The position numbers and the translations under genes are program-made. DNA of 64,000 nucleotides, from assembly GCA_964349675.1 (NCBI GenBank), contig CAYGHD010000001.1, positions 2,273-66,272 on the forward strand. Reading direction: 5' to 3'. A model generated the notes under the pieces. It saw only the letters and a list, made by a program, of their open reading frames with translations, was not told the origin of the DNA and searched no databases. This document shows positions 18,716 through 39,214 of the stretch, one piece after another (within the stretch, counting starts at the first letter, position 1; every line of letters starts with the position of its first letter). This stretch comes from an uncultured Candidatus Saccharibacteria bacterium. Its GTDB lineage: Bacteria > Patescibacteriota > Minisyncoccia > Phycocordibacterales > SBAW01.

Positions 18716-21103
18716 ATGCCAGTATTCATGGCAGCGAAGGCCTATTTTATACTGCAGATTTTTAATGAAGAGGACAGCGTCCTTTCGGTTATTGAAAGCA
18801 TTGCGCGTTGCCCAGCACTTGCTCCCTGGGATGTGCGCATCTTGGCTGTCAACGACGGAAGTAGCGACAAAAGTCTCGCAGTGCTCACCGAGGCAGCAAA
18901 GACGTACCCAGTACATACCATTACCCATCAAACACGGCAGGGCATGCCGCTCTCGTTTAAAAGTGCATTTGCGTACCTCGAGCCGTTTTTGGAAGATGAT
19001 GATGTTGTTTTTACTCTAGAAGCAGATGCGACCAATGATATCGCTTGTGTCCCGCACATGCTGCAAGAAATCGATAAGGGAATGGATGTGGTCATCGCAT
19101 CTCGGTATGCGCCCGGCGCAGTGTCGCTTGGGTTCCCATGGTATCGGTTGTGGGGAAGCGAGGTGATTAATTTGTTTTTACGGTTACTTTGGAATGTTCC
19201 AAAAGTAAAAGACTACTCTGTTTTATATAGGGTCTATCGCGGCGCGCTGCTGCGCCGCTACTTTCAAGATAAAACGCCGTTTCGTGCCCGGAAGTCTTTT
19301 GCGGTTATTGCAGAAATTTTACTGCACGTCTCTCGCTATACCAACCGCTTTAGCGAAGTCCCGCTGAGGTATGACTACGGACTTAAAAAAGGAAAATCAA
19401 AAATGAAGCTGTTGCAGACGCTTTGGGAGTACACCCGCATTACCCCAAGGACGCCGTTTCGCAAACAGCCACTTTTTTGGATAGCCGCGGCGTCACTGTG
19501 CGCATACTTGACGGGCATTATGTATGGGTTCCCAGATTTAGTTGTGCTTGATGAGCCAGCCCTCACGCGCGGCGCACTCACCATGCTTAAACTCAAGACG
19601 CTGTTGCCGGTGCTGCATCCAGCAGACTTTGCAACCATGTACTATCCGCCGGTCACTGCCTACCTCTATCTTATTGTGTTGGCGCCGTTGATGCTTTTGG
19701 GATATTTGTTTTCGCAGGCCTCATCGCTTTCTTCCTATGCGACTCAACTGATATTGGATCCTACGGTGCCGTGGGTTGCGACCCGCGCGCTCACTGCTGT
19801 TATTGCAGCGATTGGAGTCTATAGTATCGGTCGCGTGGCAGAGAGAATGTTTGCTGGGAGCGGTGTTTTTGCGGCGCTTTTTTTAGCAACAAGTTTTCTC
19901 TATGTCACGTTTGCACATATCGCACGTCACTGGATGCCGTCGTTTCTGCTCATTATTTGTCTGATATGGGTTGCCTACCACATATTCCACACAGGTCAGA
20001 AGCGCTGGTACGTTTTGGCAGGCATATTTTCTGGCTTAGCTGTTGGCACGGGGGTCATCACGGGAGTGCTCGCTATTGTGCCGCTTTTGGCCCACCTCTT
20101 CAGAGTAGAAGCTCTGCAAACAAAGTTGAAAAGCGGCTCGCTATGGATTTTTATCGTACTCGCTTCCTTGTTGTCCACCATGTTGCTCGCGGCGCATCCA
20201 TTGGTCGTGTACAACCTATTTGCTGGTGAAAGCCAGCAGGGCATCACGATTGCTGGGCAAAAATCCCTTCTTGGCCTTGTTGAAATATATGTGATTGAGT
20301 TGCGCGATTTGGCACAGTCGGAGACGATGTTGCTATTTTTTGGACTTATCGGTATCCCGCTCTTTTTGCAAAAACATCGGCGTTTTGGGGCGGTGCTCAT
20401 CCTCTCTTTGGGTATTACTGTGCTGACGGTCTACGTGTTCCATTACTACTTACTACATTATCTGTCGCTCTTGATACCGATACTTGCTATTTTTGCAGGT
20501 GCTGGCGTCTCCAGTTTGGTCCGTGTGGCAAAGAGAAAATGGCTACAGACAGTACTCATCCTTTGTATTTTTGCACTACCCCTCAGTATCGCGCTGCGCT
20601 TTAGTTACCTTTGGCTACAACCAGACACACGGCATGATGCACGTGCCTATATCGAACAGCACGTTCCAGCCGATGCGCGTATTTTGTCTTATATGCCAAA
20701 TATGAAAGTGGTATGGCCGACGAAAGATGCAATTTCTGAGCGTCTTGCGTTCGATCCACTTTCAGCTCGCTTAGTGGACCGTACATTGTTGGAGCTTTCA
20801 TTGGACGAATATCCACAGCCAGCATTTTCGGTCTTTGAGCTCGGGACAATGTCTGAGACAGGAGCGCTTACGTTAAAAGCAACGCTGGAGCATAAAACAT
20901 TTGATTACGCGGTAATAGATCGCTCAGCCACAAGTATTCCTGTTGTTGATAGTTTGGTAGCGAATGGGGAGGTCGTCGCGCGCTTTCCAAAAAACGGTAC
21001 AATACTGAGTATTATTGCTAATGAATTTCAAGGCCCTGCGTTTTTGGCTTTCTCCATACCGCAAATGGGGCCCGAAGTATGGATAATCAAACTGTCCAAA
21101 TAA
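18716..21103 (+). CDS. Fusion protein: N-terminal GT2 (dolichyl/polyprenyl-phosphate sugar synthase-like) plus C-terminal multi-TM GT-C-like (PMT/ArnT-like) domain
   Basis: N-terminus: ILQIFNEEDSVLSVIESI...ILAVNDGSSDKS (GT2 DxD region) and DVVIASRY. After ~aa 250: 10 or more hydrophobic helices with loops, typical of GT-C enzymes; 795 aa. Confidence 0.6.
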   Translation: MPVFMAAKAYFILQIFNEEDSVLSVIESIARCPALAPWDVRILAVNDGSSDKSLAVLTEAAKTYPVHTITHQTRQGMPLSFKSAFAYLEPFLEDDDVVFTLEADATNDIACVPHMLQEIDKGMDVVIASRYAPGAVSLGFPWYRLWGSEVINLFLRLLWNVPKVKDYSVLYRVYRGALLRRYFQDKTPFRARKSFAVIAEILLHVSRYTNRFSEVPLRYDYGLKKGKSKMKLLQTLWEYTRITPRTPFRKQPLFWIAAASLCAYLTGIMYGFPDLVVLDEPALTRGALTMLKLKTLLPVLHPADFATMYYPPVTAYLYLIVLAPLMLLGYLFSQASSLSSYATQLILDPTVPWVATRALTAVIAAIGVYSIGRVAERMFAGSGVFAALFLATSFLYVTFAHIARHWMPSFLLIICLIWVAYHIFHTGQKRWYVLAGIFSGLAVGTGVITGVLAIVPLLAHLFRVEALQTKLKSGSLWIFIVLASLLSTMLLAAHPLVVYNLFAGESQQGITIAGQKSLLGLVEIYVIELRDLAQSETMLLFFGLIGIPLFLQKHRRFGAVLILSLGITVLTVYVFHYYLLHYLSLLIPILAIFAGAGVSSLVRVAKRKWLQTVLILCIFALPLSIALRFSYLWLQPDTRHDARAYIEQHVPADARILSYMPNMKVVWPTKDAISERLAFDPLSARLVDRTLLELSLDEYPQPAFSVFELGTMSETGALTLKATLEHKTFDYAVIDRSATSIPVVDSLVANGEVVARFPKNGTILSIIANEFQGPAFLAFSIPQMGPEVWIIKLSK

Positions 21104-21975
21104 GAAAGGCGCTCGTCATAGGGTCGTCAGGGTTGCTCGGGCAAGCGCTTGTTCCGTATCTTCAAAAAAAAGGATTCACAGTGCTCACGCCGACGCATAC
21201 CGCACTACCTGTCGAGGATTATGCTGCGGTTCTTGAGTTTCTCAAGGTGCACCGGCCGTCCGTGGTGATAAACGCTGCGGCAGCAATCAATGTTGATGCA
21301 GTCGAGGTTGATCCATACATCGCTTGGCAGGCAAACACGCTTGGCGCGGCGGCGTGTGCCCGTGCGCTCGCTGAGCTGCAGATGCAGGACACTCCATACC
21401 TATACATCAGCACAAACTATGTATTTGATGATAGTCGCGCAGTCTATTGCGAAGCAGACCCCGTCTCTCCAATGAATGTGTATGGAGAGACAAAAGCAAA
21501 GGGGGAGTCGTTGATTGCAACATATTGCACAAAAGGTAGTATTCCGTACTATATTGCGCGCACGTCGTGGTTGTATGGAGAACACAAGAATACTTTTGTC
21601 GATGCGATGGTGGCCGCACTTCAGCGAGGAGAAACGGTGCAGGCGTTTTCGAAGCATTTAGGCAATCTTACTGCGGTGAGTGACTTTGTTCGCGCGCTTA
21701 TAGACGAGCTCTACCTGCAGCAGAGACCTTCCGGGATATATCATCTTATTAATGAAGTTGCTGATGCGGCAGGAGGAGTGTCTCGGTATGCAGTTGCGGC
21801 ACACGTGGCCTCGGTACTTGGAGTAGATCAAGCGCGGGTGCAAAAAAACGACCAAGCAGTCGCTTTTGTTGCAGAGCGCCCAGCAACTGCTGTGTTGCGT
21901 AATACAAAACTTCCGCCACTGCCTCTGTGGGACGATGCGTTGACTGCGTATCTTCGTGCAGTGTATATGGTATGA
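21079..21975 (+). CDS. rmlD: dTDP-4-dehydrorhamnose reductase
   Basis: KALVIGSSGLLGQALVPYL Rossmann motif; SPMNVYGETKAKGE (the YxxxK catalytic motif of RmlD); 298 aa. Confidence 0.65.
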   Translation: MDNQTVQIRKALVIGSSGLLGQALVPYLQKKGFTVLTPTHTALPVEDYAAVLEFLKVHRPSVVINAAAAINVDAVEVDPYIAWQANTLGAAACARALAELQMQDTPYLYISTNYVFDDSRAVYCEADPVSPMNVYGETKAKGESLIATYCTKGSIPYYIARTSWLYGEHKNTFVDAMVAALQRGETVQAFSKHLGNLTAVSDFVRALIDELYLQQRPSGIYHLINEVADAAGGVSRYAVAAHVASVLGVDQARVQKNDQAVAFVAERPATAVLRNTKLPPLPLWDDALTAYLRAVYMV

Positions 21976-23386
21976 ATAGGATGCGATGGGGTCATATTTT
22001 CTTATGTGTGGTAGCGTGCTGTGCGATTATATTTTTTTCCACCTATAAATTATTTGAAAGCCCAGAAACCTGGATGGATGAAGGTTTCATCATTCAATCT
22101 GTCGTTGGTCTGCTCTACACTGGGGCGCTGGCGCTACCGGTGGCTCCAGGAGTATTTGAATCAGCGTGGTATATGACCACAGGTTTTCCTGTGGTGCTGC
22201 CGCTGGCTGGGGCGTTTGCGCTGTTCGGTCCCTCGCTTGAAGTTGCGCGGGTAGTTATGGTTTTGTTTTTGTTCAGTTTTTTTGCAGCAGTGTGGATATA
22301 TGCGCGTGCAGTATTTAGTGAACGGATAAGTTACTTGAGTGTATTTTTTTTGATCTGCTTCGCCCCCATATATGGAAATGGTCGCAATGTATTAGGCGAA
22401 GTTCCAGGGCTCCTCTTCATAGTGCTCACTCTGTCGCTCCTGCTCCCCAAGGATCCCTTAACGCCGAGACGAGCAACTTTGTTGGGCGTGGGAGCTGGTA
22501 TCGTAGTCGCGACGAAGCCCATCTTTATTCTTTTTGCCGCCGCGCTTATTGTGGTGCTTTTTTTCCGCAGGGATGAATATGCGCTACAAAAGCAGCTCAA
22601 GTTTTTTCTATTGGGTGCTTGGGTGCCAGTATGTTTTTGGTACGTACTGCAATTTGGCGATGCCACTATTCCTCAAATACTGACGCTATACGCAAATCCG
22701 CATACCATTCCGCTTCTCGACGCGCTGCAAAGCACGATGGTACGTTTTTATACCGAGGCGCAGCCAGCTTTTTTTCTCATGCTACTGATAGTGTGGGCGG
22801 TAAGTTATGGTATCCGTCGATTTCGGCGCGAGCCTGTTTCTGCTGCGGAAGAGGTGCTCCTACTTTTTTCCGTGCTGGTCTTATGTTTGTACTTGCGTAC
22901 CGCTGGGTATTATCGATATTTTTTCCGGCACAAGTATTCGCTCTGCTGTACCTACCGAGCGCGGCGTTGTACATAGGGCGGCAGATGCGTATCCGTGGGT
23001 TTGTTATAGCCGGACTTCTTGGACTACTTTTACTTCTCTCATATGAGACACTATTTCGCTCATGGGTTGCTGTGCATTATCGGGCGACACGGACAGAGGC
23101 TTTAGCTCAGTATTTTGCTACAGTACCGGCAGATCAATCATTGTTCATATACCAAGCGCCCGAGGCGGCTCCTTTTGCTCTTGGTCATCAATTTTACCAA
23201 TATGCCCAGGTTGTACCGGGGTTGCATGCTGGCGCGCAGTGGGCACCCAAAGTGTTGGCGGGCGATGCCGCGGTGGTTTTGACGTCTCAAGGTATTTTTG
23301 GGGCTCAAAAAGATACCACTTTTGCAAAATATCGGATTTCTGAGACCATAGATGATTACGTCATTCTAGTGCCAAAACAGCGCTAG
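21972..23386 (+). pseudogene. Multi-TM membrane protein (GT-C-like?) split by an apparent frameshift near 22880-22900
   Basis: ORF 21972..22976 (frame 0) and ORF 22619..23386 (frame 2) both code hydrophobic helices across 22860-22930. Each has non-protein-like Arg-rich translation outside the overlap, consistent with one gene that changes frame. Confidence 0.4.
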
Positions 23387-23399: not shown

Positions 23400-24440
23400 G
23401 TGAGTATGAAAAAAGCACTGATTACCGGCATTACTGGCCAGGACGGCTCGTACCTCGCAGAGTTGCTTATTGCTAAGGGGTATGAAGTGCACGGGCTTGT
23501 CCGGCGGGTGAGCACCCATAATCGGCACAATATTGACCACATTTTTAATACCGATGCGCTGCAAGCTAAGCATCTGCACTGGGGCGATATGTCGGATATG
23601 AATTCGCTCGTTACTGCTTTGGCAAAAATCCAGCCGGACGAAGTCTATAATTTGGCAGCACAGTCGCATGTAAAAGTATCGTTTGAGGTGCCTTCCTACA
23701 CAGCGCATACAGACGCAATCGGAGTCTTGTCGCTTCTGGAAGCAATGCGGATGCTGGGGCTACAAAAAACAAAAATGTACCAAGCCTCGACGTCCGAGTT
23801 GTACAGTGGCGAGAAAAAACATGCACCACAAAATGAAAAAACACCTTTTAAGCCGCGTAGTCCGTATGGGGTCGCAAAGCTCTATGCGTTTGAGATAGCG
23901 CGAGTATATCGAGAGAGTTATGGCATGTTCGTCGTTAATGGTATTTTATTTAATCACGAGTCACCGCGTCGAGGAATGACCTTTGTGTCGCGTAAAATTG
24001 CGCATGCTGTTGCAGAGATAGCGTTGGGGAAAAGAGAATCGCTTACGCTGGGGAATTTGGACGCGGCTCGAGACTGGGGGTATGCTCCAGAGTATATGGA
24101 AGCTGCCTGGCAAATGCTTCAGCAAAAAACACCGCAGGATTTTGTGATTGCAACAGGAGAGACGCACTCTGTCCGAGAGTTTGTGGAAGCGGCCTTCAGT
24201 CGAGTGGGTATCGCTATTCGCTGGAAGGGAGCAGGTGTTCGCGAAGTTGGGGTTGATGCAAAAACTGGCAAAGTATTGGTCAGGGTAGATCCAGCACATT
24301 TTCGGCCCAATGAGGTGGAACATCTGCACGGGGATGCTCGGCTGGCGCGCAAAACACTCGGCTGGAAGCCAAAAACCACGTTTCAGAAATTGGTGAATAT
24401 TATGGTAGATGCTGAACTCGAGCGTATAAAAGGCGTATAA
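23400..24440 (+). CDS. gmd: GDP-mannose 4,6-dehydratase
   Basis: MKKALITGITGQDGSYLAELLIAKGYEVHGLVRRVSTHN, then YQASTSELYSG and NHESPRRG; collinear with E. coli Gmd throughout. Confidence 0.9.
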   Translation: MSMKKALITGITGQDGSYLAELLIAKGYEVHGLVRRVSTHNRHNIDHIFNTDALQAKHLHWGDMSDMNSLVTALAKIQPDEVYNLAAQSHVKVSFEVPSYTAHTDAIGVLSLLEAMRMLGLQKTKMYQASTSELYSGEKKHAPQNEKTPFKPRSPYGVAKLYAFEIARVYRESYGMFVVNGILFNHESPRRGMTFVSRKIAHAVAEIALGKRESLTLGNLDAARDWGYAPEYMEAAWQMLQQKTPQDFVIATGETHSVREFVEAAFSRVGIAIRWKGAGVREVGVDAKTGKVLVRVDPAHFRPNEVEHLHGDARLARKTLGWKPKTTFQKLVNIMVDAELERIKGV

Positions 24441-24449
24441 TAGGGATGT

Positions 24450-25649
24450 ATGGAAAAAATCTCTGAGCAAATCGGGGTCGGTTGTCTGGAAATTACTGAA
24501 ACTGAACGGCGCTATGTAAATCAAGTGCTGGATTCTGGACGTATTTCATATGGCCCTTTTTTGCAACGGTTTGAAAAAGAATTTGCTCAAGCGCATGATA
24601 TGCGTTTTGGCGTCATGGTAAACAGTGGGACGAGTGCGCTTGAGATGGCGGTGGCTGCCCTGAAGGAGGTATATGAATGGGAAGATGGGGATGAAGTGTT
24701 GTGTCCCGCTGTTACATTTGTAGCGACCAGTAATGTTATTTTGGCAAATAACCTCAATGTTGTTTTTGTGGACGTTGATCCGCGGACGTATAACTTAGAT
24801 CCTAAAAAGATAGAAGAGAAAATAACACCTCGCACTAAAGCTATTATGGTGGTGCATTTGTTTGGGCAGCCGGCGGCCATGGACGAAATCATGGAGATCG
24901 CCAAAAAACACAATCTGCGGGTCATTGAAGATTCCTGCGAAACAATGTTCGCACGGTACAAGGGTGTATCCACGGGATCTTTTGGGGACATCGGCTGTTT
25001 TTCAACCTATGTTGCGCATATTCTGGTGACGGGTGTCGGTGGGCTAGCGGTTACCGATAATCCGCAGTACGCAGCGCTGCTCCGCAGCCTTGCCAACCAT
25101 GGGCGGGATAATATTTATATTTCAATTGACGATGATAAGGGTGCATCAGGAGATCGTCTAAAAGAGGTGATTGCTCGTCGTTTTAGTTTCGTGCGGCGCG
25201 GCTATAGTTATCGGGTGACTGAGATGGAAGGGGCGCTCGGTTGTGCGCAGCTTGAACGGCACGCGAGTATGATAGAAAAAAGAAAAGCAAATGGTGCCTT
25301 TTTGAAAGAAAAACTTTCAGCGTTTGAAAAAGATCTCCAGCTTCCGTGGTGGCCAGACCACGCGGACCACGTGTTCATGATGTTCCCTATTGTTATACGT
25401 GAAGATTCGTCGGTGACGAAGCAAGAGCTCACGCAGTTTTTGGAAGAGCATAATGTTGAAACCCGGGAGATGTTGCCGCTCATAAACCAGCCCTATGTGA
25501 GAGCAGTGTCGGGTGACTTAGAGGCAGATTTTCCGGTGGCGCGCTGGATAAATAATAATGGGTTTTATATTGCCTCACACCAAATGCTCACCGATACTCA
25601 AAAAGAGTATATGGTCTCGGTCTTTCAAGAATTTTTTGCTACTCGGTAG
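24450..25649 (+). CDS. DegT/DnrJ/EryC1/StrS-family PLP/PMP enzyme; ColD-like (GDP-4-keto-6-deoxymannose 3-dehydratase) candidate
   Basis: Fold-type I sugar aminotransferase family: GDIGCFSTYVAHILVTGVGGLAV aligns with the usual FSFxxxK....GEGG block, but His sits where the Schiff-base Lys is expected, as in ColD/E1 3-dehydratases; immediately downstream of gmd. Confidence 0.6.
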   Translation: MEKISEQIGVGCLEITETERRYVNQVLDSGRISYGPFLQRFEKEFAQAHDMRFGVMVNSGTSALEMAVAALKEVYEWEDGDEVLCPAVTFVATSNVILANNLNVVFVDVDPRTYNLDPKKIEEKITPRTKAIMVVHLFGQPAAMDEIMEIAKKHNLRVIEDSCETMFARYKGVSTGSFGDIGCFSTYVAHILVTGVGGLAVTDNPQYAALLRSLANHGRDNIYISIDDDKGASGDRLKEVIARRFSFVRRGYSYRVTEMEGALGCAQLERHASMIEKRKANGAFLKEKLSAFEKDLQLPWWPDHADHVFMMFPIVIREDSSVTKQELTQFLEEHNVETREMLPLINQPYVRAVSGDLEADFPVARWINNNGFYIASHQMLTDTQKEYMVSVFQEFFATR

Positions 25650-26076
25650 GGTGTTTTTTCCATACCCATAGGCGATACCAATTGTAGTTCCAAATAAATC
25701 CAAGCAATATCCCGGCACCGTAGGCGACGTGGATGATGAGTAGGTCATGGGTCATCCGCTCTGCAATAAAAACAAAAAGCCATTGCAAGAAGACAGATCC
25801 TAAAACCACAAGGTGAAATTTTGCTAAACGGGTAGGGCTCGGGAGTTGCCGTCCTGAAAAAGAAAAATAGTTGTTGAGTATAAAATTCGATAGTATGCCG
25901 AACTCGCTTCCAATGAGTGCGGCAGTGCTGAGGCTGACGAGCTCCAAATATACGCCGATTATCTCAAAGACTGCGGTTTGTATACCCACCCCCACAACGC
26001 CAACACTGGCAGTGCGGAAAAGTCGAGATGCATACATGTGGCGCCCTGTGTTGGTAATCCGTGTGAGTAGCTCCAT
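25639..26076 (-). CDS. GtrA-family membrane protein (lipid-linked sugar translocation accessory)
   Basis: 4-TM 145-aa protein; VFEIIGVYLELVSLSTAALIGSEFGILSNFILNNYFSF is GtrA-like. Confidence 0.6.
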   Translation of the reverse strand: MELLTRITNTGRHMYASRLFRTASVGVVGVGIQTAVFEIIGVYLELVSLSTAALIGSEFGILSNFILNNYFSFSGRQLPSPTRLAKFHLVVLGSVFLQWLFVFIAERMTHDLLIIHVAYGAGILLGFIWNYNWYRLWVWKKHPTE

Positions 26077-26082: not shown

Positions 26083-27504
26083 TTACTGTAATTTGCTGCG
26101 GCGTAGTATATGCCACACAATGCTGGCGCCTTGTGTTGCTAAAAGCAGCATAAATGGCGCGGCCGGCATACGGTACCGATGCTCGGTCACTGGGCCAGTT
26201 AGGAGTGCAAAATAAAGCACCATGCCCGAAGCAAACAAGATAAACCAAAATGCCGTTGGTCGAGCGTACAGCGTGTGTCCAAGAGCTACAAGCCACAACA
26301 GCGAGATAATAATCCATGGAGTTGATCCTATGAGGAGCATTGAGAGATTTATGGAAGGGTGTGAGAAATAGTAAAACATATCTCCCCAAGCTCTCTGAAG
26401 CAGCATGTCGCTGAAGTTTGTCTGATCTGGTGGTATCTGGATGATGCCGGTGATGCGGTTCATGTCGCGCACGCCGTCGGTAATAAAAAATGGAATCGTT
26501 TTGATGAGATGGAACTGTGCATAAGCGAGGTATCTCCCTTCGAGGCTGTCATGCATCATTTTTTCAAAAATAGCCTTATGTTCTAAAGAGGGAAATCGCA
26601 ATGAGGTGGGAGGTACAGGGATTGGTGCGGTATATACGGCGGAAGCTTCAGACAAAGGAACTGTATTGACGTGCGCGTAAAATAACGGCAAATTATATTG
26701 GGTAAAATTTATATAGGGCGTTGCAGAGGCTTCCGCAACGCCATAAAGCGCGTAATTTCTCAAACACCAAGGGAGCACCACCAACGCAGCGCTAATGGTA
26801 AATACGCTCAAGTAGAGCGCCGTGTGCGATAGCGGCCGTAGTGTTTTTTTATGAAGCACGATATAGGCTATTGCAAGACAAGGGATAAGGTATTGTGCAA
26901 TAACGCGAATTAAAATGGTGGCGCCAAAAAGCAGTCCGCTTGTACACGCAAGTAGTATGTTGGTGTAGAGCGACGTTGTTTTGTAGAGAAAAAGGTATAT
27001 AGAGAGTATCAAAGTAAACACAAACAGTGTGTCGGACATAATGAACGTCGAGAAAAAAACAGTAGTGGGCTCAACACACAGCAGGAGCGCAGCCACAAAC
27101 GCAACTTTTTCAGATAAGAATTTTTTCCCAATAAGGTAGGTTAGGACAACCGTTGCACTTGAAAGAAGGATTTGAACAATCGTAATTAATACCATAGAGA
27201 GTCCCGCGCTCCCCAGAAGGTACAAAAAGAAAGGATACCCCGGCAAGCGAAAGTTTTCTGGAATAAACGGTGCAGCTGCTGAAAGAGAATATTCGTGATT
27301 AACGAGTAGATTTTGTGCTAGAAGAAAATAGCTTTTTGAATCGCCGTTAAATACAGGGTAATTTGTGTCAGGGGGCGTGTGCCCCAGTACGGTAAACCAG
27401 ATAAAAAGTCCAATAAAAACCCCCAGGCGCGCCGCTAGGGCAATGGTAAAGAGAATAAGTATTTTCCGGTATGGCAGTATGTAGTGGGTGTATAGGCGAC
27501 TCAT
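26083..27504 (-). CDS. GT-C fold membrane glycosyltransferase (ArnT/PMT_2-like)
   Basis: 473 aa, about 11-13 TM helices; first periplasmic loop carries NGDSKSYFLLAQNLL, similar to the DxxK/Y region of PMT_2/ArnT enzymes. Confidence 0.5.
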   Translation of the reverse strand: MSRLYTHYILPYRKILILFTIALAARLGVFIGLFIWFTVLGHTPPDTNYPVFNGDSKSYFLLAQNLLVNHEYSLSAAAPFIPENFRLPGYPFFLYLLGSAGLSMVLITIVQILLSSATVVLTYLIGKKFLSEKVAFVAALLLCVEPTTVFFSTFIMSDTLFVFTLILSIYLFLYKTTSLYTNILLACTSGLLFGATILIRVIAQYLIPCLAIAYIVLHKKTLRPLSHTALYLSVFTISAALVVLPWCLRNYALYGVAEASATPYINFTQYNLPLFYAHVNTVPLSEASAVYTAPIPVPPTSLRFPSLEHKAIFEKMMHDSLEGRYLAYAQFHLIKTIPFFITDGVRDMNRITGIIQIPPDQTNFSDMLLQRAWGDMFYYFSHPSINLSMLLIGSTPWIIISLLWLVALGHTLYARPTAFWFILFASGMVLYFALLTGPVTEHRYRMPAAPFMLLLATQGASIVWHILRRSKLQ

Positions 27505-28199
27505 CGTTTGAAAACGTTAAACCAAAGTATGAACCAGAGTGCTGCCAACCCATCTTTCCAAGTTATTTTCTTCCCTTCCTCATAGGTGCGTCCATGGTAC
27601 GAAATACTTACCTCATAGACTCGGCATTTTTGCCGAGCAACACGGGCGGTGAGCTCTACTTCAATGCCAAAGCGTTTTGCAGATAAGCGGGGAAGTATCG
27701 CGTGCCCAATTTTTTTGCTGAATACCTTATATCCGACCTCTATATCTGAAAGGTTGAGATTGGTAAAAATATTTGAAAGGAAGGTGATGAGGCGATTTGC
27801 AAGATAATGATGGAAATTAAACACCCGATGCGGCTTATCTCCTAAAAAGCGAGACCCGTACACAACATCAGCATCCCCGTTTAAAATCGGTGCAAGCAGA
27901 TCTGGGTAATCGTCAGGGCTGTATTCTAAATCAGCGTCTTGAATAATCCATAAGTCTCCAGATGCATGGCGCATACCCGAAATGACTGCAGCGCCTTTGC
28001 CTTGGTTATGTGTGTGAGTGACCACAACAACATCTGGAAGTGTTTTGGCGATCTCAAGGGTTCGGTCGCTCGAGCAGTCGTCGATGAGGATAACTTCTTT
28101 GGTTACCTCCCCAAGCGGTACGGCTTGGACGTGGCGGACAACCTCGGCGATTGTTTTTTCCTCGTTGTAACAGGGGATGATGACAGAAAGTGTTTTCAT
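27501..28199 (-). CDS. GT2 polyprenyl-phosphate sugar synthase-like glycosyltransferase (GtrB/DPM1/ArnC-like)
   Basis: MKTLSVIIPCYNEEKTIAEVVRHV ... LIDDCSSDRT ... IQDADLEY: the canonical GT2 motifs; 232 aa. Confidence 0.7.
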   Translation of the reverse strand: MKTLSVIIPCYNEEKTIAEVVRHVQAVPLGEVTKEVILIDDCSSDRTLEIAKTLPDVVVVTHTHNQGKGAAVISGMRHASGDLWIIQDADLEYSPDDYPDLLAPILNGDADVVYGSRFLGDKPHRVFNFHHYLANRLITFLSNIFTNLNLSDIEVGYKVFSKKIGHAILPRLSAKRFGIEVELTARVARQKCRVYEVSISYHGRTYEEGKKITWKDGLAALWFILWFNVFKR

Positions 28200-30326: not shown

Positions 30327-31022
30327 TTGAAATTTACTATGAAACTGTTTTCATACATTCGTACAAAACTCGGGGTACTCATTGTTCAAATTGTCCGTGC
30401 GCGGCATGGGGTCGTCATTTTTTATGGAGATGCTGTCCGTCGAGAACGGCTCCGGTTTATTGCATCTGTGCGCAATGAGACAAAATTATTGCTTTCAGAC
30501 CACGAGGCGTACCAGATTCTCTCACTAACCTATCAGACAGAAAAAATACCAGGCGCTATTGCCGAGGTGGGCGTGTACCGCGGCGCGTCGGCAAAGCTTA
30601 TCGCGCACGCTGCGGGTAAGCGGGCTGTGTACCTGTTTGACACATTTGACGGGCTCCCTCCACTGGAAGAGATAGATAGGGCGGCTTTTAGCGATGGACA
30701 ATATGGGGCTCGTTTGGAAGAGGTAAGCGCATATTTGTCTGCATATCCAAACAGTAAACTTATTAAAGGAGTATTTCCGCAAACTGCGCAAAGTATCGAG
30801 GGTCAGCAATTTTCATTCGTGCACCTGGATGTTGACTTGTACAAGAGCACAAAAGAGGCGCTCGAATTTTTTTATCCGCGCATGTCAAAAGGTGGAGTGA
30901 TCATTTCGCATGACTACATGACAGCTCCAGGTGTCCGGAAGGCGGTGGATGATTTTATGTCCGACAAGCCGGAAGCAGTGTTTGAATCTTCGTGGCGCCA
31001 ATGTTTTATCGTAAAAGTATGA
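30327..31022 (+). CDS. TylF/MycF-family (macrocin-O-methyltransferase-like) sugar O-methyltransferase
   Basis: GAIAEVGVYRGASAKLIA ... YLFDTFDGLP ... VHLDVDLYKSTKEALEFFYPRMSKGGVIISHDY matches the TylF family pattern. Confidence 0.6.
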   Translation: MKFTMKLFSYIRTKLGVLIVQIVRARHGVVIFYGDAVRRERLRFIASVRNETKLLLSDHEAYQILSLTYQTEKIPGAIAEVGVYRGASAKLIAHAAGKRAVYLFDTFDGLPPLEEIDRAAFSDGQYGARLEEVSAYLSAYPNSKLIKGVFPQTAQSIEGQQFSFVHLDVDLYKSTKEALEFFYPRMSKGGVIISHDYMTAPGVRKAVDDFMSDKPEAVFESSWRQCFIVKV

Positions 31023-33105: not shown

Positions 33106-34146
33106 ATGCATTCTATAGAGTACCATCGTGCCATGCAGAGCGGCACGATATTGGTATGCGGCGGCGCTGGTTTTATTGGGTCAAATTTTATACGCCATAT
33201 TTTGGCAGCGTACCCTCTGGTGCGCGTGGTATGTATTGATGTGCTCACGTACGCTGGTACAAAAGAGAATCTCGCTGGGTTGCCGAAAGACCGACTTGCG
33301 TTTGTTCAGGGTGACATTTGCGACAAGGCGGTGCTGTCTCGGGTGATAAAAAGATACAAGCCAGTGTATGCGATTAATTTTGCCGCCGAATCGCATGTTG
33401 ACCGGAGTGTCCATACTGGAGCTGCTTTGTTCGCGCGGACAAATGCAGAAGGGGTGGTGGTGTTGCTGGAATGTTTGCGGCAAGAAGCACCGCAATTGAA
33501 GAAATTTGTACAGGTAAGTACCGATGAGGTATATGGCAGCTTGTCGTTGTCGGCAAAGAAAGCGTTTACCGAAAACTCGCCCTTGTCACCGCGTTCGCCG
33601 TACGCTGCTTCAAAAGCTGCAGGGGATTTGCTGGCGCATTCATTTTTTGAAACATATCGCATGCCGGTGGTTATTACCCGTTGTTCAAACAATTATGGTC
33701 CCTATCAGCATCCAGAAAAATTTATTCCTTTTTCGATAGTGCGATTGATGGAGGGGAAGCCAGTCGCGTTGTATGGAGATGGTAAAAACGTGCGCGACTG
33801 GATCCATGTGGCGGATCATTGCAGAGCCCTTGTGCTGGCGCTCCAGAAAGGAATTCCTGGAGAAGTATATAACATTGGTGCCGACACTGAAGTGAGTAAT
33901 CTCGCCCTTGCAAAGGGATTGTTGCGATTTTTTGGCAAAGAAAACCCAGGGCTCCTGTTTATTACAGACCGTCCCGGCCACGATCGGCGGTATGCAATAG
34001 ATGCCTCAAAAATAAAAAAGGAACTTGGTTGGAAATCAAAACACACGCTAAATACATCGTTACCCAAGACGATTTTATGGTATCAGGCGCAAACAGGGTG
34101 GCTTGCACACGTGCGGCGCAAAAGCGCTCTAAACCCACACATATGA
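33106..34146 (+). CDS. rmlB: dTDP-glucose 4,6-dehydratase
   Basis: ILVCGGAGFIGSNFIRHIL; YAASKAAGDLLAHSF (YxxxK); NNYGPYQHPEKFIP: canonical RmlB. Confidence 0.85.
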   Translation: MHSIEYHRAMQSGTILVCGGAGFIGSNFIRHILAAYPLVRVVCIDVLTYAGTKENLAGLPKDRLAFVQGDICDKAVLSRVIKRYKPVYAINFAAESHVDRSVHTGAALFARTNAEGVVVLLECLRQEAPQLKKFVQVSTDEVYGSLSLSAKKAFTENSPLSPRSPYAASKAAGDLLAHSFFETYRMPVVITRCSNNYGPYQHPEKFIPFSIVRLMEGKPVALYGDGKNVRDWIHVADHCRALVLALQKGIPGEVYNIGADTEVSNLALAKGLLRFFGKENPGLLFITDRPGHDRRYAIDASKIKKELGWKSKHTLNTSLPKTILWYQAQTGWLAHVRRKSALNPHI

Positions 34147-34862
34147 AAGGTATTATTTTAGCAGGAGGGCTCGGGACGCGACTTGCGCCGCTCACACAGA
34201 TAACGAACAAGCACTTGCTGCCGGTGTATGACAAGCCTATGATTTTGTATCCACTGGAGACGCTTCGTCGCTCGGGCATTGTGGACATTATGGTGGTGTG
34301 TGGCCGAGAGTACGCGGGACATTTTATGCAGTTTTTGGGATCAGGCAAAGAGTATGGTGTTACGCTTTCGTATGGAGTGCAAGATATAAATAATGGTGGA
34401 ATTGCAGACGCTTTGTCGTATGCAAAAGATTTTGCGGGAGGTGATTCTGTTGCGGTGATTTTGGGAGACAATATTTTTGAAGGGGACTTTAAAAAAGAAG
34501 TAGCTGCATTTAAGGGTGGTGCGGCGCTTTTTTTCAAACAGGTGTCCGACCCAGAACGCTTTGGGGTGCCCGTCTTTTCTGCAGATAAAAAACGAATCCT
34601 ACGTGTCGAAGAAAAGCCAAAAAAACCCAAATCGCGCTACGCGCAGACGGGGTTCTATCTTTTTGACGCAAGCATTTTTTCGGTCATCACAACAATCACT
34701 CCCTCCGCTCGAGGTGAATTGGAGATGACCGATGCAATTAATGCATATGTGCATAAGGGCACCGCGTCGTTTTCATTTGTAAAAGGCGCATGGCTCGATG
34801 CCGGGACGTTCCCTTCATTGCTGCGGGCGGCAAACTTCTTCGCGCGGAAAAAAGCACTATGA
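34143..34862 (+). CDS. rmlA: Glucose-1-phosphate thymidylyltransferase
   Basis: MKGIILAGGLGTRLAPLTQITNKHLLPVYDKPMILYPLETL; ATGA overlap with the rmlB stop. Confidence 0.85.
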   Translation: MKGIILAGGLGTRLAPLTQITNKHLLPVYDKPMILYPLETLRRSGIVDIMVVCGREYAGHFMQFLGSGKEYGVTLSYGVQDINNGGIADALSYAKDFAGGDSVAVILGDNIFEGDFKKEVAAFKGGAALFFKQVSDPERFGVPVFSADKKRILRVEEKPKKPKSRYAQTGFYLFDASIFSVITTITPSARGELEMTDAINAYVHKGTASFSFVKGAWLDAGTFPSLLRAANFFARKKAL

Positions 34863-35431: not shown

Positions 35432-35447
35432 GTGCGGCGGGTGGCGG

Positions 35448-37001: not shown

Positions 37002-38288
37002 ATGAGCGACATTGCAAAACGCACCACCTGCCGCATTTCTGGCGAACCATTGGTTGAACTTTTTTCTATCGGAGACCACTATGTGTCAGATTTTTTACCA
37101 GAAGGTGCCTCACCGCGCGGGGAAAAAGTGCCCCTTACTCTGTGCTTGGCTCCAGAGTCGGGTCTAGTGCAGTTGGCGCATACTGCGCCTTTTGACCAAA
37201 TGTATGAAGAGTATTGGTATCGCTCTGGCACCAATGAATCGATGGTTGAAGAATTGCGCCAAATAGCAACGTCGAGCGTACGGCTGATGCGGCTCCAGCC
37301 GGGAGATGTATTTGTAGATATTGCTTGCAATGACGGCACCCTTTTTTCTTTCGTGGACCCTTCGATTGTACGCGTCGGTATTGATCCTGCAAAAAATACG
37401 TTCCGCGAAGCGGACATGGCGCGTTTTTCATTGTTTATCAACGATTATTTTTCTGCAAAAGCATATAAGGATTCGTCATTTGGAAAAACAAAAGCAAAAT
37501 TGGTAACCACCATCGCGATGTTTTATGACCTAGAAGATCCGCATGCTTTTGTTAATGATGTTGCTGAAATTTTGGATGACAATGGGTTGTGGATTATTCA
37601 GATGAGCTACCTGCCGCTCATGCTGCGGCAACTAGCCTTCGATAATATTTGTCACGAGCATCTCGAATACTATACGCTGGAGGCGATGCAATATCTCCTA
37701 TCCAAACACAACATGGAGGTAGTGGATTGCCAACTTAATGATGCGAATGGAGGCAGTTTCCGTGTCTATATCCGCAAAGCGGGCGCTGACCCGACAACAT
37801 TTGCAACGGCGCCGTATCGGGATGTTGCTCAGTACAGAGTTAATGCAGTGCTTGCATACGAAAAAGAGTTGCAGTTGAAGGACCCGCAAACGTACATTGA
37901 TTTTTATAACAAAGCCTGTGCGTTGCGCGATGAGACCCTTGCCTTCATGCGTGCAGAAAAAGCAAAAGGCAAAACAATATGGGCCTATGGCGCATCCACT
38001 AAAGGGAATACGCTCTTGCAATGGTGGGGGCTCGACCACACGCTTATCGACGGCATTTCAGAACGGCAGCCCATGAAGTTTGGCCGTCGAACCGTTGGTA
38101 CAAATATTCCCATCTACTCAGATGAAGATATGCGCAAAGCAAACCCGGACTATCTCCTGGTGCTTCCGTGGCATTTTATTGAATCTTTTGTCCGCCGTGA
38201 AAAAGAGTTTTTAGCAAAGGGCGGGAAGTTTATCGTCCCTTGTCCGCGCTTTGAAGTTATTGGTAAAGAAGGAACGCTCACTAGCTAG
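37002..38288 (+). CDS. NDP-hexose C-methyltransferase-like class I SAM methyltransferase (TylC3/Methyltransf_13+14 architecture)
   Basis: N-terminus MSDIAKRTTCRISGEPLVELFSIGDHYVSDF (degenerate zinc ribbon); central SAM-MT fold; C-terminal WAYGASTKGNTLLQWWGL (C-methyltransferase C-terminal domain motif). Confidence 0.55.
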   Translation: MSDIAKRTTCRISGEPLVELFSIGDHYVSDFLPEGASPRGEKVPLTLCLAPESGLVQLAHTAPFDQMYEEYWYRSGTNESMVEELRQIATSSVRLMRLQPGDVFVDIACNDGTLFSFVDPSIVRVGIDPAKNTFREADMARFSLFINDYFSAKAYKDSSFGKTKAKLVTTIAMFYDLEDPHAFVNDVAEILDDNGLWIIQMSYLPLMLRQLAFDNICHEHLEYYTLEAMQYLLSKHNMEVVDCQLNDANGGSFRVYIRKAGADPTTFATAPYRDVAQYRVNAVLAYEKELQLKDPQTYIDFYNKACALRDETLAFMRAEKAKGKTIWAYGASTKGNTLLQWWGLDHTLIDGISERQPMKFGRRTVGTNIPIYSDEDMRKANPDYLLVLPWHFIESFVRREKEFLAKGGKFIVPCPRFEVIGKEGTLTS

Positions 38289-39214
38289 CTTTGTTTTGAG
38301 AGAAAGTCTGTATATGCTTTCTGCAGGCCTTCAGAGAAGGAAATTTTTGGTTTCCACCCAAGCGCTTGGATACGGCTCACGTCGAGCACTTTTCGCAATA
38401 CGCCCTCTGGTTTAGTCGCGTCAAAAACTAGCTTGCCGGTGTAGCCCACTTCTTTTTTGATGGTCTCGGCTAATTCCCGAATTGAAATTTCAGTACCGCT
38501 GCCGACGTTAATGAACTCTTTTTCGTGATATTGGTCGAGTAAAAAAAGCGCTGCATCTGCAAAGTCATCTACGTACAAAAATTCGCGCAGCACTTGACCG
38601 GTGCCCCAGACCACCACTTCAGGTGCGCCAGAAAGTTTTGCTTCGTGCATGCGTAGCATGAGTGAGCCGATGACGTGGCCGCGTTCGTGGTCAAAATAAT
38701 CACCCTCTCCATACATGTTGCATGGGTTGCAGGAAATAAATTCTTGGCCGAATTGTTTGTAAATATATTCACATAATTTTATCCCAGCGACTTTCGCGAC
38801 AGAGTATGCTTCGTTAGTTGGTTCGAATTTGTTTGAAAGCAAGTATTCTTCTTTCATCGGCTGAGGCGCTTCTTTTGGGTATACGCAGCTAGACGCTAAA
38901 AAGAGTAATTTTTTTACACCCGATAGGTGCGCTTGCCAAACAACGTTATTTTGCATCACCGAGTTTTCATACAAAAACTCCGATGGATACGTGATGCTCT
39001 CTTTAAGTCCGCCTGCGCGGGCAGCTGCATGTATCACGTATTCTGGTTTTTCCTGCTGGTAAAAAAGTGCAGTAGCGCGCGAGTCGAGCAAATCAAGCTC
39101 TGCATGCGTTGGAGCAAAGATATTTGTAAACCCTTGTTTTTTGAGTGCGCGTACCAGCGCCGACCCGACCAGGCCGCGCCCTCCAGTAACAAAAATCCGT
39201 GCTTGTGTATCCAT
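38285..39214 (-). CDS. fcl: GDP-L-fucose synthase (GDP-4-keto-6-deoxymannose 3,5-epimerase/4-reductase) or its ColC-type homolog
   Basis: ARIFVTGGRGLVGSALVRAL ... LLDSRA ... YPKEAPQPMKEEYLLSNKFEPTNEAYSVAKVAGIKLCE: collinear with E. coli Fcl. Confidence 0.8.
   Translation of the reverse strand: MDTQARIFVTGGRGLVGSALVRALKKQGFTNIFAPTHAELDLLDSRATALFYQQEKPEYVIHAAARAGGLKESITYPSEFLYENSVMQNNVVWQAHLSGVKKLLFLASSCVYPKEAPQPMKEEYLLSNKFEPTNEAYSVAKVAGIKLCEYIYKQFGQEFISCNPCNMYGEGDYFDHERGHVIGSLMLRMHEAKLSGAPEVVVWGTGQVLREFLYVDDFADAALFLLDQYHEKEFINVGSGTEISIRELAETIKKEVGYTGKLVFDATKPEGVLRKVLDVSRIQALGWKPKISFSEGLQKAYTDFLSKQS

What the first reader, a model, noticed from the sequence alone, without database searches (positions are those of the whole stretch)
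23400..25649. gmd followed by a DegT-family enzyme with His in place of the catalytic Lys: ColD-like 3-dehydratase, predicted GDP-colitose-type 3,6-dideoxyhexose route
The ORF downstream of gmd is fold-type-I DegT-like. In the conserved FSFxxxK...GEGG block it reads FSTYVAHILVTGVGG, so the Schiff-base lysine position carries His. That substitution is the known hallmark of PMP-dependent 3-dehydratases (ColD, E1). With gmd, and the Fcl/ColC-like epimerase-reductase at 38285..39214, this would give GDP-L-colitose (or GDP-fucose plus colitose). The sugar is known mainly from Gram-negative O-antigens, so it would be unexpected here.
Basis: partly seen in the sequence, partly recalled or inferred. 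Interest (0 to 1): 0.65.

Follow-up and report, generated by a model that had tools for sequence, protein, structure and literature searches.

The report
Histidine-type sugar 3-dehydratase beside gmd
Next to the gene that makes GDP-4-keto-6-deoxymannose sits an "aminotransferase-like" enzyme whose catalytic lysine is replaced by histidine; it most likely removes the sugar's 3-hydroxyl to start a 3,6-dideoxy sugar, and it belongs to a large, uncharacterised and routinely mis-annotated clade found across many uncultivated bacteria and archaea.

Summary
Nine bases downstream lies a 399-aa DegT-family ORF (24450-25649, +). Its His190 aligns with ColD His188, E1 His220 and the Schiff-base Lys186 of GDP-perosamine synthase. 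All 120 close homologues carry this His, and no lysine in the clade is conserved enough to replace it.

The protein lacks three of the four E1 iron-sulfur cysteines, so a ColD-type, PMP/glutamate-dependent 3-dehydration is the best reading. The substrate link is strong. gmd is a co-directional neighbour in at least 60% of related loci, and three assemblies encode in-frame gmd-DegT fusion proteins.

It is not a ColD or E1 orthologue (28% and 32% identity). It belongs to a separate clade with 100% bootstrap support and its own signature (GVGG, Ser253, Met310). That clade occurs in at least 587 species, including CPR bacteria, DPANN archaea and Planctomycetota.

The GDP-colitose part is not established. 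The Fcl-like gene is on the minus strand, 12.6 kb away, and resembles Fcl more than ColC. The conserved operon partner is instead an RmlD-like reductase. The neighbours (GT2, GtrA, GT-C) suggest delivery through a polyprenyl-phosphate-linked sugar.

Verdict: a new variant of a known enzyme kind, of moderate interest.

The parts
18716..21103 (+). 795-aa fusion of an N-terminal GT2 domain (ArnC/DPM1-like polyprenyl-phosphate glycosyltransferase type) and a C-terminal GT-C/PMT_2 membrane domain. It is the first gene of the conserved operon.
   Evidence: PF00535 at residues 12-182 and PF13231 at 355-485. The best NCBIfam hit is ArnC-type, below cut-off. An equivalent ~800-aa ORF lies directly upstream of RmlD-like-gmd-DegT in L006 and L007.
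21079..21975 (+). Divergent RmlD-like SDR. It is the candidate 4-ketoreductase for the 4-keto-3,6-dideoxy product.
   Evidence: PF04321 176.7 bits. TIGR01214 173.5 bits, below the 224 cut-off. Only 92 bits to the best solved RmlD. A separate rmlBACD-like set lies at 33106-36977. Homologues keep synteny with gmd-DegT in L004-L008, L010 and L030.
21972..23386 (+). GT-C/PMT_2-like membrane protein inserted between the RmlD-like gene and gmd. It appears split into two ORFs.
   Evidence: PF13231 hit on ORF 21927-22976. Overlapping ORFs 21927-22976 and 22619-23386. ENA calls two genes (334 and 133 aa). It is absent from this position in L006 and L007.
23400..24440 (+). gmd, GDP-mannose 4,6-dehydratase. 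It supplies GDP-4-keto-6-deoxy-D-mannose.
   Evidence: TIGR01472 500.5 bits against a cut-off of 415. PF16363 462 bits.
24450..25649 (+). His-type DegT-family enzyme (catalytic His190). Predicted PMP-dependent GDP-4-keto-6-deoxy-D-mannose 3-dehydratase without an Fe-S cluster.
25639..26076 (-). GtrA-like small membrane protein, a putative flippase for polyprenyl-phosphate-linked sugar. It is convergent with the DegT gene and overlaps its end by 11 bases.
   Evidence: PF04138 54.8 bits. Homologues (51-60% identity) lie downstream of the His-DegT gene in L004-L006.
26083..27504 (-). 473-aa GT-C (PMT_2/ArnT-like) glycosyltransferase. Predicted to transfer the lipid-linked sugar to an acceptor outside the membrane.
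   Evidence: PF13231 39.5 bits and PF02366 25.5 bits.
27501..28199 (-). 232-aa GT2 of the polyprenyl-phosphate glycosyltransferase type (GtrB/DPM1/ArnC/AglJ-like).
   Evidence: PF00535 120.6 bits. Best NCBIfam hits are AglJ, PpgS, PgfS (a generic glycosyltransferase) and ArnC, all below cut-off. It is homologous to the C-terminal domain fused to His-DegT in other lineages (hhalign 97.3%, E 2.2e-11).
38285..39214 (-). Fcl-family GDP-sugar epimerase/reductase. Most likely GDP-L-fucose synthase. A ColC-type role is not excluded.
   Evidence: NF047922 406.8 bits against a cut-off of 500. 310 bits to E. coli Fcl 1bsv. 36% identity to authentic ColC.

Best explanation
ORF 24450-25649 most likely encodes a pyridoxamine-phosphate (PMP)-dependent nucleotide-sugar 3-dehydratase that acts on the product of the adjacent gmd.

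Proposed steps:
1. [quoted passage not shown] 2. The His-type enzyme forms a Schiff base between PMP and the C4 keto group. His190 abstracts the C4' proton and the 3-OH is expelled. Because no iron-sulfur site is present, the ene-amine intermediate is released hydrolytically as GDP-4-keto-3,6-dideoxy-D-mannose plus ammonia, and PMP is regenerated from L-glutamate. This is the ColD-type mechanism, and it is inferred by analogy.
3. An NAD(P)H-dependent SDR reduces C4. The operon-linked candidate is the RmlD-like protein (21079-21975), which would give a D-series 3,6-dideoxyhexose. The alternative is the distant Fcl-like protein (38285-39214), which would give L-colitose. This step is inferred and the final sugar is unresolved.
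4. The neighbouring GT2, GtrA and GT-C genes suggest that the sugar is loaded onto polyprenyl phosphate, flipped, and attached to a cell-surface acceptor outside the membrane. This step is inferred from context and gene fusions.

The protein is not an orthologue of ColD or E1. It belongs to a third, deep-branching, uncharacterised clade.
For: - Catalytic position: His190 aligns with ColD His188, E1 His220 and Per Lys186. It is invariant in 120 of 120 homologues and in 81 of the 83 clade representatives (the other two carry Cys or Gln).
- No alternative lysine: none is conserved in the clade. The best is K72 at 82%, which is replaced by R, A, M or N in the rest.
- Cofactor and specificity sites fit a dehydratase: Asp161, Glu164 (ColD Glu162), Ser185, Tyr187 (E1 Tyr217), and Ala189 (E1 Ala219) rather than the aminotransferase Asn. 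These sites are taken from 10.1101/2021.09.04.459008.
- Iron-sulfur site: E1 Cys251, Cys253 and Cys261 are Asn221, Tyr223 and Asp229 here. The 2022 review PMC8987622 states that ColD lacks this cluster while E1 and SpnQ need it.
- The 20-residue insertion after the HGRD motif is shared with E1 and ColD but not with Per.
- The AF2 model is confident (pLDDT 90.4) and superposes on Per, E1 and ColD at TM 0.86-0.89.
- Substrate link: gmd ends 9 bases upstream. gmd lies within 3.5 kb, always on the same strand, in 32 of 53 fully flanked loci, and L004 adds one more as a fusion. In-frame full-length gmd-DegT fusions occur in L004, L008 and P0019.
- Need for a downstream reductase: SDR-DegT fusions (P0129, P0135, P0137, P0138) and an adjacent Fcl-family or RmlD-like SDR in 31 of 53 loci.
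- Lipid-linked route: DegT-GT2 fusions are homologous to the window's 232-aa GT2, and GtrA and GT-C genes lie next door.
Against: - There are no biochemical data for any member of this clade.
- The clade departs from ColD, E1 and Per at three conserved positions: Val196 for the Glu of GEGG, Ser253 for the Asn that all three references carry, and Met310 for Phe/Trp. The consequences of these changes are unknown.
- Identity to ColD is only 28%. Sequence and fold similarity to the aminotransferase Per are as high as to the dehydratases.
- The loop at 219-250, next to the active site, is modelled with low confidence.
- No manB or manC for GDP-mannose supply lies in the window.
- About 40% of related loci lack an adjacent gmd, so substrate range across the clade may vary.
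- The tree is neighbour-joining, unrooted, and has only three characterised anchors.
Confidence: 0.72

Rival explanations
1. It is an ordinary sugar aminotransferase (perosamine-synthase-like) that makes a GDP-4-amino-4,6-dideoxy sugar, as most database names suggest.
For: Source annotations call relatives 'perosamine synthetase' or 'dTDP-4-amino-4,6-dideoxygalactose transaminase'. GDP-perosamine synthase is among the best sequence and fold matches.
Against: The Schiff-base Lys is His in all members and no alternative Lys is conserved. The residue before it is Ala, not the aminotransferase Asn. The insertion shared with E1 and ColD is absent from Per. The review reports no transaminase activity for wild-type ColD or E1.
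Confidence: 0.05
2. It is an E1/SpnQ-type dehydratase. Its ene-amine intermediate would be reduced by electrons from a partner reductase through an iron-sulfur cluster.
For: E1 is the top sequence hit in the PDB (1.3e-59) and RfbH is the best NCBIfam model. Tyr187 and Ala189 match E1 rather than ColD.
Against: Only one of the four E1 cluster cysteines is kept, and ColD keeps that one too. The RfbH score of 261 is far below the 423 cut-off. No CDP-glucose pathway gene or E3-like reductase was found in the window. E1-like paralogues coexist with this clade in L035 and L040, so the two are not interchangeable.
Confidence: 0.05
3. It is a 3-dehydratase that works on a different nucleotide sugar, for example the dTDP-4-keto-6-deoxyglucose made by the RmlB encoded in the same island.
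For: A complete rmlBACD set lies 8-11 kb downstream. The operon partner is RmlD-like. About 40% of related loci have no adjacent gmd.
Against: gmd is immediately upstream, 9 bases away. Full-length gmd-DegT fusion proteins occur in the closest relatives. gmd is by far the commonest conserved neighbour.
Confidence: 0.08
4. The clade catalyses a related but different PMP/PLP reaction on the gmd product, such as an altered elimination, an epimerisation, or a coupled deoxygenation-amination. Its own active-site changes would be responsible.
For: There are clade-specific invariant or dominant substitutions: Val196, Ser253 and Met310. The clade is separate with 100% bootstrap. Rare members carry Cys or Gln in place of His. 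In some DPANN loci a Lys-type DegT lies directly upstream.
Against: All residues so far implicated in dehydratase chemistry are in the dehydratase state. The recurrent coupling to a 4-ketoreductase-type SDR is what a 4-keto-3,6-dideoxy product requires.
Confidence: 0.1

Closest known systems
ColD / WbdK, GDP-4-keto-6-deoxy-D-mannose 3-dehydratase of E. coli O55 (PDB 2gms, 3b8x, 3gr9)
   Same: DegT fold. His at the Schiff-base position (His188 to His190). Glu162 matches Glu164. No 2Fe-2S cysteine motif. Encoded with gmd, so the predicted substrate and hydrolytic, glutamate-recycled mechanism are the same.
   Different: Only 28% identity, and a different clade. Ala189 in place of ColD Ser187, Tyr187 in place of Phe185, Val196 in place of the GEGG Glu, Ser253 in place of Asn248, and Met310 in place of Phe302. 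The partner is not a clear ColC. The context is a polyprenyl-phosphate GT2/GtrA/GT-C module rather than an O-antigen cluster.
E1 (RfbH/DdhC/AscC), CDP-6-deoxy-L-threo-D-glycero-4-hexulose 3-dehydrase of Yersinia pseudotuberculosis (PDB 3bcx)
   Same: Best sequence hit (1.3e-59, about 32% identity). His220 to His190, Tyr217 to Tyr187, Ala219 to Ala189. Shared HGRD-type motif and insertion loop.
   Different: Three of the four Fe-S cysteines are missing. Below the RfbH equivalog cut-off. No CDP-glucose genes or E3 reductase nearby. E1 Asp194 is Glu here.
GDP-perosamine synthase Per of Caulobacter crescentus (PDB 3bn1, 3dr4, 3dr7)
   Same: Uses the same GDP-4-keto-6-deoxymannose substrate. It is the closest fold match (TM 0.87, rmsd 1.9 A, 33% identity).
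   Different: Per has Asn185-Lys186 where this protein has Ala189-His190. Per lacks the 20-residue insertion. It groups with the Lys-type sequences at 98% bootstrap.
GtrA/GtrB/GtrC and ArnC/ArnT-type lipid-linked monosaccharide modification systems
   Same: The module composition is the same: a small GT2 polyprenyl-phosphate glycosyltransferase, a GtrA-family protein and a GT-C transferase, next to the genes that make the donor sugar.
   Different: The predicted donor is a GDP-linked 3,6-dideoxyhexose. The GT2 assignments are below curated cut-offs. In other lineages the GT2 domain is fused directly to the His-type DegT enzyme.

Membership tests
PMP-dependent nucleotide-sugar 3-dehydratases (functional class of ColD, E1, SpnQ) | DegT/AAT fold-type-I scaffold | tested here: met
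   PF01041 318 bits. The AF2 model (pLDDT 90.4) superposes on E1, ColD and Per at TM 0.86-0.89.
PMP-dependent nucleotide-sugar 3-dehydratases (functional class of ColD, E1, SpnQ) | His replaces the Schiff-base Lys | tested here: met
   His190 aligns to ColD His188, E1 His220 and Per Lys186. Present in 120 of 120 homologues.
PMP-dependent nucleotide-sugar 3-dehydratases (functional class of ColD, E1, SpnQ) | No other lysine can serve as the Schiff-base residue | tested here: met
   No Lys column exceeds 82% in the 83-member clade. There is none within residues 172-229, and K230 is not conserved.
PMP-dependent nucleotide-sugar 3-dehydratases (functional class of ColD, E1, SpnQ) | The residue before the His is not the aminotransferase Asn (ColD Ser187, E1 Ala219) | tested here: met
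   Ala189. Across all 109 aligned sequences (clade, E1/ColD-like and Lys-type together): A 64, S 18, C 13, N 4, the Asn being the aminotransferase state.
PMP-dependent nucleotide-sugar 3-dehydratases (functional class of ColD, E1, SpnQ) | C3 deoxygenation of an NDP-4-keto-6-deoxyhexose, demonstrated | not testable with these tools
   Requires an enzyme assay.
ColD orthologues (EC 4.2.1.168) | Groups with E. coli ColD in a phylogeny, or shows high identity to it | tested here: not met
   28% identity. The window protein sits in a clade with 100% bootstrap that excludes ColD, and the ColD+E1 group is split off at 96%.
ColD orthologues (EC 4.2.1.168) | No 2Fe-2S cysteine motif | tested here: met
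   Asn221, Tyr223 and Asp229 stand at E1 Cys251, Cys253 and Cys261.
ColD orthologues (EC 4.2.1.168) | Genetic coupling to gmd (GDP-4-keto-6-deoxymannose supply) | tested here: met
   9-base spacing. 32 of 53 loci. gmd-DegT fusions in L004, L008 and P0019.
ColD orthologues (EC 4.2.1.168) | A dedicated ColC (GDP-L-colitose synthase) partner | tested here: inconclusive
   The only Fcl-family gene is 12.6 kb away on the minus strand and is closer to Fcl (310 bits) than to ColC (36% identity). The operon partner is RmlD-like.
E1 / RfbH (CDP-sugar 3-dehydrase) | NCBIfam NF011936 equivalog cut-off | tested here: not met
   260.9 bits against a cut-off of 423.
E1 / RfbH (CDP-sugar 3-dehydrase) | C-X57-C-X1-C-X7-C 2Fe-2S motif | tested here: not met
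   Only the Cys193 equivalent (Cys163) is present, and ColD has that one too.
E1 / RfbH (CDP-sugar 3-dehydrase) | Companion CDP-glucose pathway and E3 reductase genes | tested here: not met
   None among the window's annotated ORFs.
GDP-perosamine synthase and other DegT aminotransferases | Asn-Lys catalytic dyad in the FSFxxNK...GEGG block | tested here: not met
   Ala189-His190, and GVGG in place of GEGG.
GDP-L-fucose synthase Fcl (for ORF 38285-39214) | NCBIfam NF047922 equivalog cut-off | tested here: not met
   406.8 bits against a cut-off of 500. It is still the best family, with a full-length match to E. coli Fcl at 310 bits.

The most novel reading that the evidence does not exclude
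The window protein represents a third, deep-branching and so far uncharacterised lineage of His-type PMP-dependent sugar 3-deoxygenases. Its signature is FSTY-x-A-H-x3-TGVGG with Ser253 and Met310. It is spread through CPR bacteria, DPANN and other archaea and more than ten further phyla. In the window's lineage it is coupled, in relatives even fused, to gmd. It is partnered with an RmlD-like reductase and a polyprenyl-phosphate GT2/GtrA/GT-C module. The end product would then be a GDP-derived 3,6-dideoxyhexose other than colitose (for example a D-series, tyvelose-type sugar), attached to the cell surface from a lipid-linked monosaccharide. That would make 3,6-dideoxyhexoses common surface sugars of uncultivated, LPS-free microbes rather than a Gram-negative O-antigen speciality.
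Probability: 0.3. Interest if true: 0.7.

Novelty: new variant of a known kind. Interest (0 to 1): 0.5.

Why it matters
3,6-Dideoxyhexoses are regarded as rare sugars of certain Gram-negative O-antigens. According to a 2022 review, only three nucleotide-sugar 3-dehydratases (E1, ColD and SpnQ) have been well characterised.

If this clade does the same chemistry, several things follow:
- Thousands of database entries named "aminotransferase" or "perosamine synthetase" are wrong.
- C3-deoxygenated sugars would be predicted on the surfaces of CPR bacteria, DPANN archaea, Planctomycetota and others. In episymbiotic CPR and DPANN cells, surface glycans plausibly mediate host contact.
- The clade would offer a natural sequence variant (GVGG, Ser253, Met310, no Fe-S) for working out what makes a DegT scaffold a dehydratase rather than a transaminase.
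- It would give enzymologists a compact two-enzyme, or single fusion-protein, route from GDP-mannose to a 4-keto-3,6-dideoxy sugar.

The prediction can be tested directly with recombinant protein.

Tried and rejected
- Fold comparison could not separate dehydratase from aminotransferase. Per, E1 and ColD all match at TM 0.86-0.89, so the argument rests on residues and context.
- The ColD and E1 structural papers (PMC2533848, PMC2782820) are not held. GDP-contact residues could therefore not be taken from the literature, and GDP versus CDP specificity was not tested at residue level.
- The AlphaFold-DB library was unavailable.
- The first attempt to scan the Fcl-like ORF on the + strand failed, because it is on the minus strand.
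- I tried to tell Fcl from ColC by similarity. Similarity favours Fcl, but ColC is itself an Fcl-family member and the catalytic Cys and His are present in both, so a ColC role cannot be excluded.
- I looked for manB/manC, CDP-glucose genes, an E3-like reductase and a second DegT paralogue in the window. None was found.
- No tRNA genes are present.
- Literature searches for colitose or 3,6-dideoxyhexose pathways in CPR, DPANN or Planctomycetes found nothing relevant. This covers the held library only.
- The neighbour-joining tree is unrooted and has few Lys-type sequences, so it cannot say whether the Lys-to-His change arose once.
- My first neighbourhood count missed gmd in L004 and L008, because there it is fused in frame to the DegT ORF. 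This was corrected.
Full report
**1. What is in the sequence**

ORF 23400-24440 (346 aa from GTG; the ENA gene call starts at the ATG at 23406) is a bona fide GDP-mannose 4,6-dehydratase. It scores 500.5 bits against TIGR01472, whose cut-off is 415, and 462 bits against PF16363.

Nine bases downstream, ORF 24450-25649 (399 aa) is a full-length DegT/DnrJ/EryC1/StrS-family protein (PF01041, 318 bits). The block FSTYVAHILVTGVGG is residues 184-198.

**2. Is the His really at the Schiff-base position?**

Yes. In ungapped HMMER alignments, His190 falls on E1 His220. The H220K mutant structure 3bb8 shows Lys in exactly that column. His190 also falls on Lys186 of GDP-perosamine synthase, where the K186A mutant 3dr4 shows Ala.

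I fetched the authentic colitose genes of E. coli O55:H7, ColC at L003:2404-3327 and ColD/WbdK at L003:3324-4490. BLASTP aligns FSTYVAHILVTGVGG with ColD FSSFYSHHIATMEGG, so His190 matches His188.

The His is present in 120 of 120 close homologues. Among the 109 aligned sequences it is present in 102.

That test fails. Within the 83-member clade no Lys column exceeds 82%. The best, K72, is replaced by R, A, M or N in the others and lies far from the motif. K230, in the adjacent loop, is not conserved.

**3. Which kind of His-type enzyme?**

A 2022 review states the defining features (PMC8987622). All characterised nucleotide-sugar 3-dehydratases (E1, ColD, SpnQ) have His for the catalytic Lys. 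E1 and SpnQ also carry a four-cysteine 2Fe-2S site and need a reductase. ColD has no cluster, releases the intermediate hydrolytically, and regenerates PMP from glutamate.

A preprint lists the sites implicated in dehydratase versus transaminase specificity (10.1101/2021.09.04.459008). These are E1 Asp194, Tyr217, His220 and Phe345, and ColD Ser187. Mapping them in an alignment with E1, ColD and Per gives:

| Reference site | Window residue | Note |
|---|---|---|
| E1 Asp194 / ColD Glu162 | Glu164 | ColD state |
| E1 Tyr217 | Tyr187 | E1 state (ColD has Phe185) |
| ColD Ser187 / E1 Ala219 | Ala189 | not the aminotransferase Asn |
| E1 His220 | His190 | catalytic His |
| E1 Phe345 | Met310 | ColD Phe302, Per Trp |
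| E1 Cys251, Cys253, Cys261 | Asn221, Tyr223, Asp229 | cluster ligands absent |
| E1 Cys193 | Cys163 | also kept by cluster-free ColD (Cys161) |

An E1-type iron-sulfur mechanism is therefore very unlikely, and a ColD-type mechanism is the best inference. A 20-residue insertion after the HGRD motif is shared with E1 and ColD and is absent from Per. The RfbH/E1 NCBIfam model is the best hit, but at 261 bits it falls far below its 423 cut-off.

**4. It is not a ColD or E1 orthologue**

Identity is 28% to ColD, about 32% to E1 and about 33% to Per. An exhaustive search of 50%-identity cluster representatives shows that the signature "His plus a non-Glu residue in GxGG" (mostly GVGG) persists down to about 35% identity. 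E1-like (AHHITMGEGG) and Per-like (NK...GEGG) sequences appear only lower in the list.

I built a neighbour-joining tree of 109 domain sequences with 100 bootstraps:
- The window protein falls in an 83-member clade with 100% support.
- E1, ColD and 14 other His/GEGG sequences are split from it at 96%.
- The five Lys-type sequences, including Per, form their own group at 98%.

Caveats apply. The tree is distance-based and unrooted. It has only three characterised anchors. The E1 and Per sequences were rebuilt from the alignment output and are slightly truncated.

Clade-specific features are Val196 (Glu in E1, ColD and Per), Ser253 (Asn in all three references) and Met310. No solved structure belongs to this clade; the best PDB hit is 206 bits. 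The AF2 model is confident (pLDDT 90.4, pTM 0.88) apart from the 219-250 loop. It is equidistant in fold from Per, E1 and ColD (TM 0.86-0.89), so fold alone does not discriminate.

**5. Distribution**

The exact protein lies on a 71-77 kb metagenomic contig (ENA ERZ27247837). The nearest relatives (73-76% identity) are from Patescibacteria/Paceibacterota MAGs. By inference, the window is therefore a CPR contig.

These include CPR groups, DPANN archaea, Methanosarcinales, Planctomycetota (among them cultured Limnoglobus roseus PX52), Elusimicrobia, Nitrospirales, Acidobacteriota and Omnitrophota. Source names are generic or wrong: "DegT family aminotransferase", "perosamine synthetase", "dTDP-4-amino-4,6-dideoxygalactose transaminase".

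**6. Context evidence for substrate and pathway**

Among 53 related loci with at least 3 kb on both sides:
- gmd (at least 45% identical to the window's) lies within 3.5 kb in 32, always on the same strand.
- An Fcl-family or RmlD-like SDR lies within 3.5 kb in 31.
- At least one of these is present in 43.

That count missed L004, where gmd is fused in frame. L004 (753 aa) and L008 (755 aa), the window's closest relatives, encode full-length gmd-DegT fusion proteins, as does P0019. This is strong Rosetta-stone evidence that the enzyme takes the Gmd product directly.

Other fusions point to the downstream steps:
- SDR-DegT fusions occur in P0129, P0135, P0137 and P0138.
- DegT-GT2 fusions occur in P0121, P0122, P0126, P0194, P0199 and eight loci. 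Their C-terminal domain is homologous to the window's 232-aa GT2 (hhalign 97.3%, E 2.2e-11).

In the window, that GT2 (27501-28199, minus strand) sits with a GT-C/PMT_2 protein (26083-27504, minus) and a GtrA-family protein (25639-26076, minus), directly downstream of the DegT gene and convergent with it. Upstream, the order is a 795-aa GT2-GT-C fusion, an RmlD-like gene, gmd and DegT. L006 and L007 keep this order with overlapping stop and start codons. The window has an extra, apparently split, PMT_2 gene inserted.

**7. Which final sugar?**

The Fcl-like protein is 12.6 kb away, on the other strand, between two sugar C-methyltransferases. It matches E. coli Fcl at 310 bits over its full length but authentic ColC at only 36% identity. 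It is most simply a GDP-fucose synthase sharing gmd, although a ColC-type role cannot be excluded.

The conserved operon partner is a divergent RmlD-like SDR. It scores 173.5 bits against a 224 cut-off and only 92 bits against the best solved RmlD. The island also has a separate rmlBACD-like set, so this copy is not needed for dTDP-rhamnose. In that set RmlB (413 against 365) and RmlC (185 against 156) pass their cut-offs, RmlD is at its cut-off (220 against 224), and RmlA falls below (235 against 361). A plain 4-ketoreductase would give a D-series 3,6-dideoxyhexose rather than L-colitose.

In many other phyla the cassette is gmd, His-DegT and a divergent Fcl-family SDR. That SDR is about as far from Fcl as ColC is. 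This mirrors gmd-colD-colC and is compatible with colitose in those lineages.

No manB or manC is present in the window.

**8. Verdict**

The 3-dehydratase reading is well supported (confidence about 0.72). The colitose product is unresolved.

The enzyme works like ColD but is not a member of the ColD or E1 orthologous groups. It represents a widespread, uncharacterised and mis-annotated third clade, here tied to a lipid-linked glycosylation module. I found no description of this in the held literature, which does not prove that none exists.

Novelty: a new variant of a known kind. Interest: 0.5.

Noticed in passing
window 37002-38288 (+), 40103-41395 (+), 30327-31022 (+): Two NDP-hexose C-methyltransferase-like genes (Methyltransf_14, with the zinc-binding Methyltransf_13 domain above cut-off only in the second) flank the Fcl-like gene. 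A TylF-like O-methyltransferase lies upstream. The island may also make branched-chain or methylated deoxysugars. Homologues of the C-methyltransferases occur near the His-DegT gene in L005, L049, L053, L055 and L060.
   Followed up: partly
window 21927-23386 (+): The PMT_2/GT-C gene between the RmlD-like gene and gmd is split into two overlapping or adjacent ORFs (21927-22976 and 22619-23386; ENA aa and 133 aa). It is absent from this position in L006 and L007. It may be a frameshifted insertion or pseudogene.
   Followed up: partly
window 43391-51622: A second sugar module: NeuB-like synthase, CMP-sugar cytidylyltransferase, class-III aminotransferase (minus strand), aldo-keto reductase, methyltransferase, xylose-isomerase-like TIM barrel, SDR and a carbamoyltransferase. 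This suggests a modified nonulosonic-acid-type sugar.
   Followed up: no
window 11428-57494: The glycan island is about 46 kb, remarkably large for a presumably small CPR genome. It holds many GT4, GT2, GT9 and GT47 genes, an ABC exporter (53407-55176) and a Wzy_C/O-antigen-ligase-TPR protein (55188-57494). It is bracketed by Mur ligases on the left and MurB/SecA on the right.
   Followed up: partly
window 145-3828 (+), 8729-10558 (+), 10455-11390 (+): A 1227-aa ORF with no Pfam match, a TrwB/TraG-like type-IV coupling protein, and a lamin-tail-domain protein lie upstream of the glycan island.
   Followed up: no
L023:2846-4051, L024:6785-7909, L041:6742-7899 (all +): In these DPANN or archaeal loci a Lys-type DegT aminotransferase lies directly upstream of the His-type gene. 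This hints at 3-deoxy-4-amino sugars (3-deoxyperosamine type) made by dehydratase plus transaminase.
   Followed up: partly
L035:12841-14289 (-), L040:2760-4103 (-): An E1-like His-type paralogue (AHH..GEGG) coexists with the GVGG-type gene in the same locus. The two His-type lineages are therefore not redundant.
   Followed up: no
proteins P0142, P0146, P0166 (relatives): P0142 carries an intein (HINT/intein splicing domains) inserted in the DegT domain. P0146 has Cys and P0166 has Gln at the catalytic His position within the same clade.
   Followed up: no
P0125, P0131 (relatives): Further multi-domain fusions of the His-type domain: GT2 plus methyltransferase at the N-terminus (808 aa), and a GT4 glycosyltransferase at the C-terminus (799 aa).
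   Followed up: no
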